Origin: Candidatus Latescibacterota bacterium
Lineage (GTDB): Bacteria; Latescibacterota; CBDEFO01
DNA length: 64,000 bases
Direction of reading: 5' to 3'
Assembly (NCBI GenBank): GCA_965248755.1
Contig: OZ252149.1
Span: forward strand, 3,200,001 to 3,264,000
Position numbers and translations under genes: made by a program. Of this stretch, positions 35,456 through 42,817 are shown in pieces (position 1 is the stretch's first letter; every line of letters begins with the position of its first letter). Below the pieces are notes generated by a model. That model was given only the letters and a program-made list of their open reading frames with translations, was not told the origin of the DNA and made no database searches.

Positions 35456-35686
35456 CCCGAATAATTCACAAAAAAGGCCGTGTATTAATTAAGGGATTGT
35501 ATTATATTATAGTTATGCGGTTTAACCACCTTCGGTGTCATTGCGAGCCGAAGGCGAAGCAATCCCCCCGATAGATTTAATCGGGGGTTACTGTGGTAGA
35601 TGTAATACTCTCCGTCTCTCATAGAAGACCACTATAAGACCTTGAGATTGCTTCCCCGATAGACTCAATCGGGGTTTGGCAATGAC
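35456..35686. mobile_element. MITE copy 2 (right TIR missing) containing two micro-hairpins
   Basis: TTAA-CCCGAATAATTCA left end; collinear with 43666-43888. Confidence 0.72.
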
Positions 35687-36486: not shown

Positions 36487-36575
36487 TAGACAGGGAAAGG
36501 CAAGGGCAGACGTGCCCGGAAGACAGTAGACAGGGCAACTCCTCCCACCCCGGTATGCTGACGAGGAACAGCACG

Positions 36576-37577
36576 TTAATCTTGAAACGCCTCTGAATCG
36601 GACAACGAACCTGAAATATCCAGATCTGGCATTGAGGTTGAGTTTCGCTCCCTCAGTATGTCTCGTCCCGATCTAACCGCTCGGTATCCGAATCGCTCTC
36701 GCAGAGAATCGACTGCTCCTTGAAAGCGCTCCTTTTTTTCAGTTTCGTTATCCCACAAGCTCAACTGGCGGGCTGCAGGGCTCAGGTTGCCGGCACCTAC
36801 ACCCAAGAGTCGCACAGCCTGTCCTGGACTCCAGAGCTTTTCAAAGAGACCCATCGCCTCACTGTAAATCCTAAAGTCCAGATCGGTCGGCTCTCTCAAT
36901 GCAACTTGCCGCGTTAAGGTGGTAAAATCGGGCCAGCGCAACTTCAACGTGACTTTGCGGCAACTTACGCCCTTCCACCTAAGTCTCCTTCCCACTACCT
37001 CAGACAAGACAAAGAGAGTTCCCTGGAGTACATCCCTGTCAGGAACGTCGTGTGAGAAGGTTGTCTCCTTGCTCATAGACTTTTCTTCCCTTGTGGTTTC
37101 AACAGGGCTGTCGTCGATGCCTCGTGCATAGAGCGCTAACCTCCAACCGTTCACCCCAAAACGCCGACCGAAGTATTCCTCAGGCCATCTGGCAAGATCC
37201 CCTATGGTGCTGAACCCAAGTTTTCGCAGGTAACGGGCTGTTTTTGTTCCGACCCCCCACAGCGCACTGATTGGAAGAGGTGCAAGGAAGGCCGCCTCCT
37301 GACCAGGCGGCACCACCGTAATGGCATTGGGTGGTTCGACCATTCCCTGCGGACCGTTCGTCTGAACCGATGCTTTACCGACATTGTTAGCGATCTTTGT
37401 AACTATCTTGTTGGTAGCAGCGCCCAATGAACATGGTAATCCAATGTTGTCCCGGATTGAGGTCTGTAATTTCCGAGCTAACACTCCTGCCGGCTCTGCG
37501 CTATGTGATAAATCCAGAAACGCTTCATCTACCGAAAATTTCTCAACAACTGGCGTCAATGCATACAGATGCTCAAT
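36576..37577 (-). pseudogene. dinB: DNA polymerase IV, 3' part
   Basis: FSVDEAFLD, LWGVG, KSMSKETTF and VRLLGV motifs; rejoins in frame with 41836-42107. Confidence 0.9.
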
Positions 37578-39203
37578 CCCCCATTCGCCATATTAGACCC
37601 GAAAAATGGTTGTCAAAGTCGCCAGAACATGTTATATTACAATAAATAAGACTCATAAATGGCGGATAAATATTGATCATCCAGAGGGTGAAAGAATGAA
37701 AGTAGGTTTTGATGGAGGAATAAAGCTTGAATTTCATGGTGCAAAGGTGACATCAAACGGTGGACTTCTTGCGTATCGTGACCTTGATTACGCACTGGGA
37801 TTATTTGATTCGGTATCAGCGGTTTTTACCGATAAACGCACAGGCCGTAATATCCAACATGATATATCTACTCTCCTGCGTCAATCGATATACAGCCGTC
37901 TTGCAGGATATGAAGATGTAAATGACGCCGAGCGATTATCCGTTGATCCCGTCATGCGAGCGATTACCGGAAAGAAGGACAAAGGCAGGCAAGCTGCCAG
38001 CTCCAACACGATAGGACGTTTTGAAACTGATATACTGACTCAGCATGACAATCTCAGAAACTTGTCAGATATCAATGGCAAGTGGGTTCAAAAAGCGATG
38101 AGTAAAACACAGCATCAACGAATCATTCTGGACATGGACAGTTCGGAGAGTCCGGTACATGGCCAGCAGGAAGGATCAGCTTACAACGGTCATTTCGGAT
38201 GTACCTGTTTTCATCCAGTGTTCTGCTTCAATCAGTTCGGGGATTGTGAAGGAGTCCTACTTCGCTCTGGTAATGTTCACAGTGCTGATCGTTGGAAGGA
38301 AGTTCTGGAACCGATCGTCAAGAGATACGAGAGCAAGAAGAATAGGAAATACTTTCGAGGCGATGCTGCATTCGCAAAGCCTGAGATTTATGATTATCTG
38401 GAGGGAAACGGCTATTTGTATGCCATTCGGTTTCCCGCAAATGAGATACTCTATGAAAAGATACGATACCTGCTGACTCGGCCAGTTGGACGACCGCCGA
38501 GGAAACCGATTGTATCGTTATATGAATTTCAATATAAAGCGGCCAGTTGGGATCAATCGAGGCGAGTGGTCGCCAAGGTTGAATGGCACCAAGGGGAGTT
38601 ATTCCCAAGAGTGGGATTTATCGTGACCAACATGAGCGCCAAGCCAGAAGGCGTGGTACACTTCTACAATGGCCGTGGCAGAGCTGAGCAGTGGATTAAG
38701 GAGGGCAAGTATGCTCTGAACTGGACCCGACTCTCATGCAAGCGTTTCGTCTCCAATCAGGTGAGGCTCTGGCTGTTTGTTCTGGCTTACAACTTGGGCA
38801 ACTTCCTGCGACGTTTTGTTCTTCCGAAGAAAATCAAACACTGGTCACTACGCAGCCTCCTCGTGAAATTTATCAAAATCGGAGCGAAGATTGTCAGACA
38901 CAGCGGATATATTACGTTTCAAATGGCTGAGGTTGGGATAGACAAGAGGTTATTTGCCGAAATATTATCCCGGATTGAACGATTGCGATGTTATTCTGTT
39001 TAAACTGCCACATTTTTTTGTGAGTCGATGGAGAGGTGTCTCTAATTGGAGGATTTAAACACAAAGAAAGTGATAATTCAGAGGAAAATACTATTTTAAT
39101 TGAAAAAAGTACTTGTTGAAAAATGTAAAAGTGGTAATATTAATTCAGAAACAAGAATGTATCGAAATATAATCCCTCATGAATGTGATATGGGGAATGT
39201 CGG
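37578..39203 (+). mobile_element. IS1380-family insertion sequence
   Basis: IRL CCCCCATTCGCCATAT and IRR (reverse complement) CCGACATTCCCCATAT, 13/16 match; intact transposase. Confidence 0.92.
37606..39003 (+). CDS. IS1380 transposase (start uncertain)
   Basis: AGYEDVND, LDMDSS, RGDAAF and YNGRGRAEQWIKEGK motifs. Confidence 0.94.
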   Translation: MVVKVARTCYITINKTHKWRINIDHPEGERMKVGFDGGIKLEFHGAKVTSNGGLLAYRDLDYALGLFDSVSAVFTDKRTGRNIQHDISTLLRQSIYSRLAGYEDVNDAERLSVDPVMRAITGKKDKGRQAASSNTIGRFETDILTQHDNLRNLSDINGKWVQKAMSKTQHQRIILDMDSSESPVHGQQEGSAYNGHFGCTCFHPVFCFNQFGDCEGVLLRSGNVHSADRWKEVLEPIVKRYESKKNRKYFRGDAAFAKPEIYDYLEGNGYLYAIRFPANEILYEKIRYLLTRPVGRPPRKPIVSLYEFQYKAASWDQSRRVVAKVEWHQGELFPRVGFIVTNMSAKPEGVVHFYNGRGRAEQWIKEGKYALNWTRLSCKRFVSNQVRLWLFVLAYNLGNFLRRFVLPKKIKHWSLRSLLVKFIKIGAKIVRHSGYITFQMAEVGIDKRLFAEILSRIERLRCYSV

Positions 39204-39654
39204 TTGTACTCTATCTTGAATTTATAAAAACTCAAAAAAGTTTTGGATGTTTTGTCTCTCTCACGTATCTATAATACGACAGTGATATAAATTTCTCATA
39301 AAGTATTTGTAAAATAGTTGACAAATACTAAATATATGTAAAATAAATAAGATATGTCATCAAAGAAAGCTTGACAAAGCTTGGGAATTGTACTATACGT
39401 ATAACAGTTACTAACATTATCCTGATTAAGCAAAGAACTTGATGACTTCTATGCGGTGTCTTTCACGAATTCTACGTAACAGCTATAGGTAGTCCTAATT
39501 TGTTTGCTGAAAAGATACTGCTATTAACTTAAAGAACTTTCATGCCGGAAGGGGAAATAGTTTCAGGCAAAGGAAAGGAGGGAGCGAAACATCAGAAAAG
39601 AGCTCCTGTATAGCAGTTGATGGCATTGTTCTTGTAAGGAGGTGATGAAACAAA

Positions 39655-40287
39655 ATGAGAGGACGAGCAGTGAAACCTTCCACGGTTCTGGCTACGATAA
39701 CTTTCGTTATCTTGGGTATCGCTGCACAAATACACGCCCAGGTGTCCGCCCCAATTATCACTAATTACGTCAGAGCGGTTGCAGTCGAACCCGGAGGGAA
39801 CGCGGTCTATGTGGGTTTATACATTGCAAGGCGTATGGTCCGATTCGCATCAGAGGACGTGGGAAACGCCGACCCGCGCTCTTTGACCATAGCGATAGCC
39901 GCCAAGGACGCCTTTGACTTTCTCGGCTCCCCCGAGGGTGAACTTGCGCTCGCTCAAGCGGCAGTCTACCTTGCCACAGCCCCTAAGAGCAATTCTGTAT
40001 ACTCCGCATATCAGATGGCCCAGGAAGACGTCCAAAAAAGTCCCTCTTTGCCCGTCCCTCTCCACATTCGCAACGCCCCTACGCAACTTATGAAAGAACT
40101 CGGATACGGAAAGGGCTACAAATACGCCCACGATTCTGAGGAAAGCTACATAGCTCAGGAATATCTGCCCGACAATCTGGCAGGTGCCAAGTACTACTAC
40201 CCCACAGAACACGGATACGAAAAGAAGATAACGGAAATGATGAAATGGTGGGAGAGCCTTAAGCAGTCAGTAGACAGGAGTCAGTAG
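39655..40287 (+). CDS. chimeric ORF: secreted-protein N-terminus fused to the RarA/MgsA C-terminal domain
   Basis: Signal-peptide-like N-terminus; from 39816 LYIARRMVRFASEDVGNADP..PKSN..HIRNAPT..GYKYAHD. Confidence 0.75.
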   Translation: MRGRAVKPSTVLATITFVILGIAAQIHAQVSAPIITNYVRAVAVEPGGNAVYVGLYIARRMVRFASEDVGNADPRSLTIAIAAKDAFDFLGSPEGELALAQAAVYLATAPKSNSVYSAYQMAQEDVQKSPSLPVPLHIRNAPTQLMKELGYGKGYKYAHDSEESYIAQEYLPDNLAGAKYYYPTEHGYEKKITEMMKWWESLKQSVDRSQ

Positions 40288-40467
40288 CCCCCGATTGAAT
40301 CTATCGGGGCTAGACAGGGCACCGCCTACCATCCCCCTTTCCTAAGAAGACATCAGTTTTTCCTCTTCAACTTTCGCAGGAAATTGTAGGGGCGAGGTCC
40401 CCTCGCGCCAAGGACTGGGTCTCCCAGCCCCTACGAAACGTTGCTTGGAACAGGAGCACGAGGTAAA

Positions 40468-41523
40468 TTGCTCGTATCCGAATTCGACTACTATCTGCCG
40501 CAAGGACTCATCGCTCAATATCCCTTAGTGGAGCGGGGCGAATCCAGACTGATCGTCGTGGACAGGCAGCGCAAAAGCATAGATCACAGGCACTTCAAGG
40601 ATATAGTGGACTACATAAATCCAGGTGATTGTCTCGTCATCAACGATATAAAGGTCCTCCTGGCTCGGCTGATAGGAAAGAGAGTTGTCACAGGGGGCAA
40701 GATCGAAATTCTACTTCTGAAGAGATTGTCGGAATCTCCGCCCACCTGGTCGGTACTGGCAAAGCCAGGAAGGTTAGCCAGATTGAACGCTCAATTTGCC
40801 TTCGGGGAGAAAGATAACGCTCTAACTGGGGAAATTGTGGAGATCCAGCCGGACGGAATCAGGACTATGCGATTTGAATGTACAGGATCGTTTGAGCAGA
40901 AATTAGCTCAAATTGGACAGGTCCCGCTCCCTCCTTACATAAAAAGATCCTCTCCTTATGATCAGGACTTTCAAAGATACCAGACCGTCTACGCAAAAGT
41001 GGAGGGAGCAATCGCTGCTCCTACTGCCGGACTGCACTTCACAGATCATATCCTCGATAGAATAAGAAACAAGGGCGCATCTGTAGTCCCCCTAACCCTG
41101 CACGTTGGACTCGGTACGTTTGCACCCGTGAAGACAGAAAGAGTGGAAGACCACACGATGCACGAAGAGAAGTACCAGGTCTTGGAAGACGCCGCAACTA
41201 TTATCAATCGTAGAAAGGGAAAGGTCTTCGCCGTGGGTACGACTGTGCTCAGGACGCTGGAGTCAACATCCCACTGTGACGGATCTGTCCACCCCGGATC
41301 AGGAGAGACGGACTTATTTATCTATCCGGGCTATAAGTTTAAGGTCGCAGACGCTCTCTTGACGAACTTTCACCTCCCCAAGACCACTCTCCTTATGCTA
41401 GTCTGCGCCTTTGGTGGTGCGACCACTCCGTGTGGAAAAGATCTTATTTTCAAGGCCTACGAGGAGGCTATAGAGGAAAGATATAGATTTTACTCCTACG
41501 GAGACGCCATGCTGATCGTGTGA
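40468..41523 (+). CDS. queA: S-adenosylmethionine:tRNA ribosyltransferase-isomerase
   Basis: PLPPYI, YQTVYA, AAPTAGLHF, TNFHLP and YSYGDAM motifs. Confidence 0.96.
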   Translation: MLVSEFDYYLPQGLIAQYPLVERGESRLIVVDRQRKSIDHRHFKDIVDYINPGDCLVINDIKVLLARLIGKRVVTGGKIEILLLKRLSESPPTWSVLAKPGRLARLNAQFAFGEKDNALTGEIVEIQPDGIRTMRFECTGSFEQKLAQIGQVPLPPYIKRSSPYDQDFQRYQTVYAKVEGAIAAPTAGLHFTDHILDRIRNKGASVVPLTLHVGLGTFAPVKTERVEDHTMHEEKYQVLEDAATIINRRKGKVFAVGTTVLRTLESTSHCDGSVHPGSGETDLFIYPGYKFKVADALLTNFHLPKTTLLMLVCAFGGATTPCGKDLIFKAYEEAIEERYRFYSYGDAMLIV

Positions 41524-41526
41524 TCG

Positions 41527-41835
41527 CTACCCTGTCTTTCCGAAGTTGTCCAGAAAGATCACAAAGTCGGACAGTCCGATCTCTCCATTACCATCTAAAT
41601 CAAATTTAGGATCCCAATTAGCCGAATCAGTCGTTGTCCCGAAAGCATCCAAGAAGAGGACAAAATCTGAAAGACCTACTTCCTTGTTCCCGTCAAAATC
41701 TCCTATAAGCGAAGTGGAAGAAGGCTGGTTGGCCTGCCCTAATGTCGGCTCAGCGACTACCCAGTCTGACGATTGATGGGGGAAGTTCCCATCTCCTACA
41801 TACTGAATAGACTGTCCGGTCGGAACACTTGTGGG
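41527..41835 (-). pseudogene. 3' fragment of a gene ending in a dockerin/EF-hand-like domain
   Basis: Open 102-codon frame with no start: GDFDGNKEVGLSDF...FDLDGNGEIGLSDF..FGKTG*; begins exactly at the unit boundary. Confidence 0.8.
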
Positions 41836-42107
41836 TCAATACACTGTTCGGAGGCTTTCCCATATACCAGGTGTCGCCGGGGGACAATTACTAACTCAGG
41901 ACACAGTTTGACCGCTTGAGCCATCGGTATCCCTGAGCCTATACCGAACTTTCGAGCTGCATACGAGCAGGAAGCTACTATCCCTCGACTATCAGGTTGC
42001 GCACCTACAGCGAAGGCTACACCCTTAAGGGACGGATCGCGCTGCTCTTCCACGGCGCAGAAAAAGGCATCCAGGTCAAAGTGTAATATTTTACGATACA
42101 TAGGCAT
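41836..42107 (-). pseudogene. dinB: DNA polymerase IV, 5' part
   Basis: ILHFDLDAFF, SYAARKFG and AVKLCP motifs. Confidence 0.9.
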
Positions 42108-42817
42108 TTACAGGAAAAACTTACTGAACAACTTCCGATTCTTCCCCCGGACGATACAAACTTCCCTGAGGATATCAATCACAAAATTACCTGCTGGCAG
42201 GTTCTCTTTACCCTATAAGACCAGATCCCTAGGGAGCATATCTTTGCCTCAGAAGGTAGTAAGATTTTTCACCGATCCTCATTTTTGTCAAACTACTCCC
42301 CTGAGCGGCTGCCTTTTCCTGCTCCTGATAGATTCAATTGGGGGCGCTCGCAATGACAATAGTATGTGCTCATAAGGATGTTGCTTGGTTTGTACTTTTA
42401 GTCATTGCGAGGGGGTTCTCCCCGAAGCAATCTCGGAAGGGGGGAGGAAGCGCCCTCTATCTACAGTCTACTGGGCAAAACGTTTGTCCCTATATACATC
42501 TGTTGTAGGGGCAGACCCGTGTGTCTGACCTTGGGGCTACCACTTCGTGGCTTGTGGCTCTCCAACAAAGCGCCCATGGCGCCTCGCCCCTACATACTGC
42601 CTGCTGTTCCTACGAACATCCGTTCGTAGGAACAGCAGTTGAGGCATTTGCAGCAAGATCCGTTCCTGACCATTTTCGCCCCGCACTCGTAGCAGGCAGG
42701 GGCGTCGGCCAGAGTCAGTAACACCTACTTTTCCCGCATCTCAACCTCTTTCATCGTCATCCCGTTTTCTCGGCGTGAGAGATCGGGTGCCGTATTCTTC
42801 CCGTTATCGCCCGGCTT

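What the first reader, a model, noticed from the sequence alone, without database searches (positions are those of the whole stretch)
37573..41840. IS1380 transposition unit apparently built by two successive one-ended captures, inserted in dinB
Seen: the IS (37578-39203) has no direct repeat at its own right end. TCAAT flanks the larger 37578-41835 segment instead. Deleting that segment plus one TCAAT gives YGKASEQCIEHLYALTPVVEKFSVDEAFLD, an in-frame DinB of normal spacing. The cargo has an internal junction at 39815/39816. Both that junction and the unit end finish in TGTGGG; the true IRR ends TGTCGG, and the 16-mer at 39800-39815 matches the IRR at 9/16. Known: ISEcp1 (IS1380 family) mobilises adjacent DNA using degenerate right ends and makes 5-bp duplications. 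Inferred history: capture 1 took 39204-39815 and jumped into rarA; capture 2 took the rarA 3' end, queA and a dockerin-gene tail and jumped into dinB. This would be a snowballing element carrying housekeeping DNA.
Basis: partly seen in the sequence, partly recalled or inferred. Interest (0 to 1): 0.85.

Follow-up and report, generated by a model that had tools for sequence, protein, structure and literature searches.

The report
Jumping gene that hoards neighbouring DNA
A bacterial jumping gene often overshoots its own right end and carries the neighbouring DNA along; here it did so twice in a row and broke two DNA-repair genes, a known behaviour whose family tree is unusually well preserved in this one chromosome.

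Summary
Confirmed and extended. The 4,258-bp unit (37578-41835) is flanked by TCAAT, and removing it restores a 422-aa DinB. Its donor is on the same chromosome: an identical copy in which IS+612 bp splits the only rarA at TTTAT, with queA and the dockerin-like gene native. The probable first donor is a copy whose flanks later changed (inferred). A same-genus genome has intact dinB and rarA.

This is routine for this IS1247-like IS1380 element. 26 of 47 near-identical copies carry 58-5,734 bp of cargo, from 19 distinct captures, 5 of them second-round. 18 of 19 donors persist intact. The ends do not share TGTGGG; they share T at -6 (19/19) and A/T at -7.

The mechanism is known (ISEcp1 transposition units, ISPme1 modules), and a two-step case is published (PMC4609946). 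What is unusual is the preserved genome-wide genealogy, which bears on the open questions of donor fate and end choice (PMC9330008). The scan had not reported this before.

The parts
36576..37577 (-). 3' part of dinB (DNA polymerase IV), interrupted near codon 89-91
   Evidence: IMS, IMS_HHH, IMS_C; empty site gives 422 aa; 91% identical to intact G001 DinB
37573..37577 (+). left target-site duplication TCAAT
37578..39203 (+). IS1380-family insertion sequence, 1,626 bp, 47 full copies at >=99.8% in the genome
   Evidence: transposase 55% identical to IS1247/ISKpn23, 25.5% to ISEcp1
37578..37593 (+). left inverted repeat (IRL), used exactly in all 47 copies
   Evidence: 13/16 match to IRR; no copy carries left-side cargo
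37672..39003 (+). DDE transposase; the IS1247 start Met aligns with an ATT at 37672, next ATG at 37696
   Evidence: PF13701 DDE_Tnp_1_4 E=6e-128, profile 5-434/435; start alignment
39188..39203 (+). true right inverted repeat (IRR), skipped by this unit
39204..39815 (+). cargo 1 (612 bp): upstream region and first 54 codons of a secreted BNR/Vps10-type beta-propeller gene from a paralogue family
39800..39815 (+). alternative right end used in capture 1
   Evidence: followed by TTTAT duplication at the donor G000:3849774; 9/16 to IRR
39816..39820 (+). TTTAT: relic right-hand duplication of the earlier insertion in rarA
   Evidence: matches the left flank of the donor copy and the single TTTAT in intact G001 rarA
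39655..40287 (+). chimeric 210-aa ORF: N-terminal 54 aa of the propeller gene (apparent signal peptide, by eye) fused in frame to the RarA/MgsA C-terminal domain
   Evidence: MgsA_C E=2.6e-59; junction
39816..41835 (+). cargo 2 (2,020 bp) copied from the rarA-queA locus
   Evidence: 100% identical to G000:3852012-3854031
40154..40169 (+). another alternative right end, used by the sister unit at G000:1891550 (IS+966 bp, duplication CTTTA) and skipped by this unit
40441..41523 (+). complete queA, one of two identical copies in the genome
   Evidence: PF02547 E=1.3e-125
41527..41835 (-). 3' tail of a 244-aa secreted protein with a dockerin-like repeated motif; whole gene intact at the donor
   Evidence: no Pfam dockerin hit
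41820..41835 (+). alternative right end used in capture 2
   Evidence: identity with the donor stops exactly here; T at -6, G at -2
41836..41840 (+). right target-site duplication TCAAT
41836..42107 (-). 5' part of dinB
   Evidence: IMS E=2.8e-22

Best explanation
An IS1247-like IS1380 element in a recent burst transposes using its exact left end plus either its true right end or a weak look-alike up to about 6 kb downstream (one-ended transposition). This creates transposition units with 5-bp (rarely 4- or 6-bp) target duplications. Shown: a unit of IS+612 bp inserted in rarA; from there two larger units jumped on, IS+966 bp to G000:1891550 and IS+2,632 bp into dinB (this window), leaving the rarA donor intact. 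Inferred: the 612 bp were picked up when the IS sat in the AT-rich upstream region of a secreted-propeller gene beside flgB, most likely the copy now at G000:834366, whose left flank was later deleted into fliI and whose right flank was replaced by a paralogue after 189 bp. Inferred mechanism: transposase anchored on IRL pairs with a downstream site that needs little more than A/T-T at -7/-6 and G/C at -2. The unit is copied out, or is cut from one sister chromosome and inserted in the other, so that the surviving chromosome keeps donor and daughter.
For: Exact duplication and restored reading frames at both steps. 4,258 bp identical to the donor, with identity ending exactly at the duplication. 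The three units share a minority IS allele at position 854, found in 5 of 47 copies. Intact dinB and rarA in G001, and empty dinB joints in runs of two other studies. Genome-wide, 25 of 26 cargo-bearing copies have the duplication exactly where identity to the donor ends. T at -6 in 19 of 19 ends (p=5.5e-12, one of 24 positions tested), shared with both true IRs and with IS1247's IRs. 18 of 19 donors still hold the full cargo. G001 shows the empty TTGTA site about 585 bp from flgB; G000 lacks flgB and fliG and has fliI cut at the 834366 copy. Family behaviour described in PMC9330008 and PMC12589106 (passages).
Against: The source of cargo 1 is not in the genome at full identity: the 834366 copy matches for 189 bp only, lacks the expected left TTGTA, and carries the majority allele at 854. 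Two unrelated copies also carry the minority 854 allele and the 121 allele does not follow the genealogy, so gene conversion or polishing noise blurs the SNP evidence. The outer junctions are bridged by only 26 and 30 letters in contigs of what may be the source sample. Donor retention cannot separate copy-out from cut-and-paste between sister chromosomes. No transposition was assayed.
Confidence: 0.9

Rival explanations
1. The unit is an assembly artefact made by joining repeats (47 IS copies) wrongly.
For: The genome is repeat-rich and its contig has an untrimmed 7.2-kb end overlap. The outer junctions fall just short of the 31-letter bridging rule.
Against: A misjoin would not create a 5-bp duplication that restores dinB in frame, nor do so at 25 of 26 units. 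The internal junction is bridged in X1 and X2, and contig depth steps (11, 32, 18.5, 8) are compatible with 1, 3, 2 and 1 copies, although the tool warns that depth is no copy number.
Confidence: 0.02
2. The cargo was duplicated by homologous recombination or gene conversion between IS copies, or as a composite transposon with a second IS.
For: Four of 47 copies have lost their duplication and show adjacent deletions or swapped flanks; IS alleles are mixed among families.
Against: There is no second IS or any homology at the distal end. Recombination does not make a target duplication or a conserved base at -6.
Confidence: 0.03
3. Same two-step history, but cargo 1 came from a different, now lost locus (or from another cell), not from the copy at G000:834366.
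For: No paralogue in G000 matches the 54-aa start better than 85%; the best match over the last 200 bp is a G001 paralogue at 93%.
Against: 834366 starts with the same 189 bp at the same nucleotide, and lies in the interval syntenic with the G001 locus that has a gene of the cargo-1 type at that place.
Confidence: 0.2
4. Transposition is conservative (cut-and-paste) and donors survive only because the daughter landed on the sister chromosome or the gap was repaired; there is no copy-out step.
For: Established logic for cut-and-paste DDE elements (own knowledge); all observed chromosomes are survivors; no tandem IRR-IRL junction appears among the flanks of the 47 copies.
Against: 18 of 19 donors are intact and none shows a healed empty site that I could recognise (not searched systematically); a replicative route was suggested for ISPme1 (PMC9330008 passage).
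Confidence: 0.35

Closest known systems
IS1247 / ISKpn23 (IS1380 family) and IS1247a- and ISPme1-driven transposable modules (TMos)
   Same: 55% identical transposase over the full length; 16-bp IRs matching 13/16 in both, with A-T at -7/-6; 5-bp duplication (PMC3281130 table); capture of variable lengths at the 3' end (PMC9330008).
   Different: A distinct element (<60% identity to anything in PLSDB), 47 copies in one chromosome, cargo is ordinary chromosomal DNA with no evident selected gene, and donors and daughters are all visible. The ISPme1 primary paper was not held.
ISEcp1 (ISEc9) transposition units, in particular ISEcp1-blaOXA-181 in K. pneumoniae MS6671 (PMC4609946)
   Same: One-ended transposition with alternative right ends and 5-bp duplications. 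The Fig. 2 legend describes a unit that re-transposed with 37 bp of the gene it had entered, the donor staying in place. Gain and loss of cargo on re-transposition is also in PMC12589106.
   Different: Only 25.5% transposase identity. Second-round cargo here is 88-3,404 bp and includes whole genes. For ISEcp1B a 3'-terminal G was suggested as crucial (PMC12116815 passage); here a terminal G occurs in only 10 of 19 ends while T at -6 is invariant.
IS91/ISCR rolling-circle one-ended capture
   Same: A single element picks up downstream DNA by missing its terminus (PMC9330008).
   Different: HUH/tyrosine transposase and no target duplication; this element has a DDE transposase and duplications.

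Membership tests
IS1380 family | single DDE_Tnp_1_4-type transposase of about 430-460 aa | tested here: met
   PF13701 E=6e-128 over 5-434/435; best plasmid hits annotated IS1380/IS1247 at 55-58%
IS1380 family | about 1.65 kb with short imperfect terminal IRs beginning CC | tested here: met
   1,626 bp, IRs 13/16, versus IS1247 1,671 bp, 13/16
IS1380 family | 4-5 bp target duplication | tested here: met
   43 of 47 copies: 39 perfect 5-bp, one 5-bp with a mismatch, two 6-bp, one 4-bp
ISEcp1-type transposition unit / TMo | one IS copy plus downstream DNA of variable length, bounded by IRL and an alternative right end, duplication outside | tested here: met
   25 units with distal duplication, 19 distinct ends
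ISEcp1-type transposition unit / TMo | alternative ends resemble the true IR | tested here: met
   mean 6.3/16 versus 4.05 background; signal confined to -7, -6 and weakly -3 to -1
ISEcp1-type transposition unit / TMo | outward-facing promoter near IRR driving cargo | tested here: inconclusive
   one 10/12 sigma70-like site at 39144-39173 (+), but 13 sites in the region against 7.6 expected; no RNA holder listed
ISEcp1-type transposition unit / TMo | demonstrated transposase-dependent mobility | not testable with these tools
   genomic inference only
ISEcp1 itself (same element) | near-identical transposase | tested here: not met
   25.5% identity

The most novel reading that the evidence does not exclude
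This element has in effect no fixed right end. Its transposase needs only IRL plus a two-base core (A/T-T at -7/-6), picks the partner end by something other than likeness to IRR (a perfect 11-base IRR tail was passed over by all three captures from one donor), and copies rather than cuts. It would then be an iterating engine of small segmental duplication that has already duplicated at least 12 whole genes, made a chimeric gene and spawned a new standard form (IS+186 bp, 8 direct insertions), and this chromosome would be a natural experiment answering how IS1380 units choose ends and whether donors survive.
Probability: 0.3. Interest if true: 0.7.

Novelty: new member of a known kind. Interest (0 to 1): 0.48.

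Why it matters
IS1380 elements are the family that spread CTX-M, CMY and OXA-181 genes, yet a 2022 review states that their transposition pathway is unknown and that donor fate has not been examined for ISEcp1 (PMC9330008, passage). Clinical examples are few per genome and filtered by drug selection. This chromosome gives 19 apparently unselected captures with base-exact ends and 18 surviving donors. It yields testable rules: IRL is always exact, capture is on the right side only, the invariant base is T at -6, median cargo is 1.2 kb, and targets are AT-rich. It also shows the cost and reach of the process in an uncultured bacterium: the only rarA and one dinB broken, queA and other whole genes duplicated.

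Tried and rejected
TGTGGG as the end signal: rejected, only 2 of 19 ends have it. TCTAT at +608 of the 834366 copy as a target duplication: rejected, the propeller gene reads on through it. First-acceptable-site scanning: not supported; a median of 8 equal-or-better sites lie upstream of the end used, 26 for this unit (leave-one-out matrix). The consensus WTVBVSN fits 18 of 19 ends but was derived from them and occurs at 2.8% of positions, so it is descriptive only. Local hopping: not seen, donor-daughter distances are 135-2,104 kb (the parent of the 186-bp family is assumed). A reciprocal partner for the 834366 flanks (left TTGTA or right TCTAT): none among the 47. FliF profile search: no match in either G000 or G001, so uninformative. 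The same behaviour in G001: not testable, its best relative of the IS is 86% and partial. Expression: no RNA holder listed. Papers not held: Partridge 2018 review, Bartosik 2008, Poirel 2005, so their lists of alternative ends were not seen. Six literature searches listed no genome-wide genealogy of IS1380 units; most subscription papers are outside this library. No supplements were read.
Full report
Observation. The window is G000:C1:3200001-3264000 of a single 4.54-Mb contig with a 7.2-kb end overlap, i.e. apparently circular. TCAAT flanks 37578-41835, the IS (37578-39203) has no duplication of its own, and the empty site gives a 422-aa DinB. Pfam confirms the parts: DDE_Tnp_1_4 transposase, MgsA_C, Queuosine_synth and the two IMS halves. 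The same-genus genome G001 has intact dinB (422 aa) and rarA (446 aa). Contigs of two runs from other studies join across the unit, showing empty dinB in relatives.

Capture 2 is shown. All 4,258 bp recur at 100% at G000:3849774-3854031. There the IS is preceded by TTTAT, TTTAT recurs 612 bp past the IRR, and the empty site gives a full RarA frame; beyond the point where identity ends, the 244-aa dockerin-like gene continues intact. So the rarA copy is the donor and the window copy the daughter. A sister unit at G000:1891550 took 966 bp from the same donor, with duplication CTTTA. These three copies share a minority allele at IS position 854, present in 5 of 47 copies; two of the five are unrelated, and the allele at 121 does not track the families, so this is modest support. 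The donor's rarA is the only one in the genome; a second dinB is intact at 1089532-1090710; queA is now present twice.

Capture 1 is shown as a unit, inferred as to source. The TTTAT duplication in rarA proves that IS+612 bp arrived as one piece. The 612 bp are the upstream region and first 54 codons of a secreted BNR/Vps10-type propeller gene of a paralogue family, but no full-length gene with this sequence is left in G000 (best 85% at protein level). A fourth copy, G000:834366, has the same first 189 bp and then a paralogue. It lies in the interval syntenic with a G001 locus where a cargo-1-type gene and the empty TTGTA site sit about 585 bp from flgB. In G000 its left flank is a truncated fliI, and flgB and fliG are missing. 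The simplest reading is that this is the first donor, later altered on both sides. That is inference.

The unit is one of many. Of 48 full-length matches, 47 are >=99.8% identical and one 93% copy was left out. Of the 47, 18 are simple insertions with their own duplication, 25 are units whose duplication lies exactly where identity to a donor ends, and 4 have none, one of these carrying 1,258 bp of cargo. The 26 cargo-bearing copies come from 19 distinct ends, 58-5,734 bp, median 1,243; one end (+186) was used in 8 direct insertions. Five captures are second-round: +3237578 (this one), -1891550, -3743374, +3008331 and +2711395. No copy carries left-side cargo. In 18 of 19 captures the donor still holds the whole cargo; the exception is capture 1 above. 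Reading frames lying wholly within the cargoes include queA, a periplasmic binding protein, an SDR, a PfkB kinase, a PQQ dehydrogenase, a methyltransferase, two signalling genes, a Gfo/Idh/MocA oxidoreductase, a phage integrase, a phosphorylase and one 454-aa unknown: 12 in all, from this unit and the 8 other cargoes fetched. G001 has no close copy of the IS (best 86%, partial), so the burst is recent.

End recognition. The 19 ends were placed by duplication or, in one case, by the divergence point, not by motif. T at -6 is present in 19 of 19 (p=5.5e-12, 24 positions examined), A at -7 in 16 (T in the other 3), G or C at -2 in 18, terminal G in only 10; nothing is conserved beyond -12. Both true IRs, and both IRs of IS1247, have A-T at -7/-6. 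In a leave-one-out matrix the real ends rank in the top 0.6% of positions at the median, yet a median of 8 equal-or-better sites are skipped. A perfect copy of the last 11 IRR bases lies 329 bp past the donor at -921841 and none of its three captures (98, 321, 397) used it; three events are too few for more than a hint. Targets are AT-rich (T at position 2 in 35 of 43, A at position 4 in 28 of 43).

Artefact check. The in-frame restorations at 25 of 26 units are the stronger argument against misassembly.

Comparison with what is known. The transposase is 55% identical to IS1247/ISKpn23 and 25.5% to ISEcp1. One-ended capture by IS1380 members is described as ISEcp1 transposition units and ISPme1/IS1247a modules (PMC9330008, PMC3281130, PMC12589106; passages). 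Serial capture is in print: an ISEcp1-blaOXA-181 unit re-transposed twice with 37 bp of its host gene (PMC4609946, Fig. 2 legend). PMC9330008 says the pathway is unknown and donor fate unexamined for ISEcp1, with a replicative route suggested for ISPme1. PMC12116815 cites a terminal G as crucial for ISEcp1B, which does not hold for this element. PMC13423793 only confirms that ISKpn23 mobilises adjacent DNA. The primary mechanistic papers were not held. Six searches listed no comparable whole-chromosome genealogy, which does not show that none exists.

Verdict. Real, correctly read, and a new member of a known kind. The single unit is ordinary for the family. The value lies in the census around it: many apparently unselected captures, surviving donors and a sharp minimal end rule that can be tested directly. 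Donor survival is compatible with copy-out transposition but also with cut-and-paste between sister chromosomes, so it narrows the open question without settling it.

Noticed in passing
G000:C1:2701227-2718160: Two different units of this IS (cargo 186 and 4,662 bp) sit at the same nucleotide (duplication CTGAC) of two copies of another ~1.27-kb repeat with 69 near-full copies, 7.9 kb apart and inverted; a hot spot or an unexplained rearrangement.
   Followed up: partly
window 39655-40287: Capture 1 made an in-frame fusion of an apparent signal peptide region to the RarA C-terminal domain, behind the propeller gene's own upstream region; present in two full copies and one truncated copy.
   Followed up: partly
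G000:C1:806000-842000 (L003): A large flagellar operon lacks its first genes: fliI is cut at the IS copy 834366, and flgB and fliG are not found in G000; G001 has the operon broken differently.
   Followed up: partly
G000:C1:836449, 1610060, 2645487, 2657941, 3383497: A family of secreted BNR/Vps10 propeller genes, several with a shared AT-rich upstream region of up to ~450 bp; the copies look mosaic, suggesting gene conversion.
   Followed up: partly
window 37672-37698: The start Met of IS1247 transposase aligns with an ATT codon here; 10 of 47 copies change the next ATG (37696) to ATC, so the true start may be non-canonical.
   Followed up: partly
G000:C1:3746991-3753026: A unit with 2,780 bp of cargo has a second copy of the same IS inserted inside it, with a 4-bp duplication.
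   Followed up: yes
G000:C1:3959959 and 3782900: Two copies lack duplications; at 3959959 about 500 bp present in G001 are missing next to the IS, i.e. an adjacent deletion.
   Followed up: partly
G000:C1:1-7206 and 4533530-4540735: Untrimmed circular overlap of the contig ends (99.9%), containing part of one IS copy.
   Followed up: yes
window 35600-35675, 36507-36551, 40265-40434, 42400-42640: Short intergenic palindromic repeats that recur dozens of times in G000 and G001.
   Followed up: no
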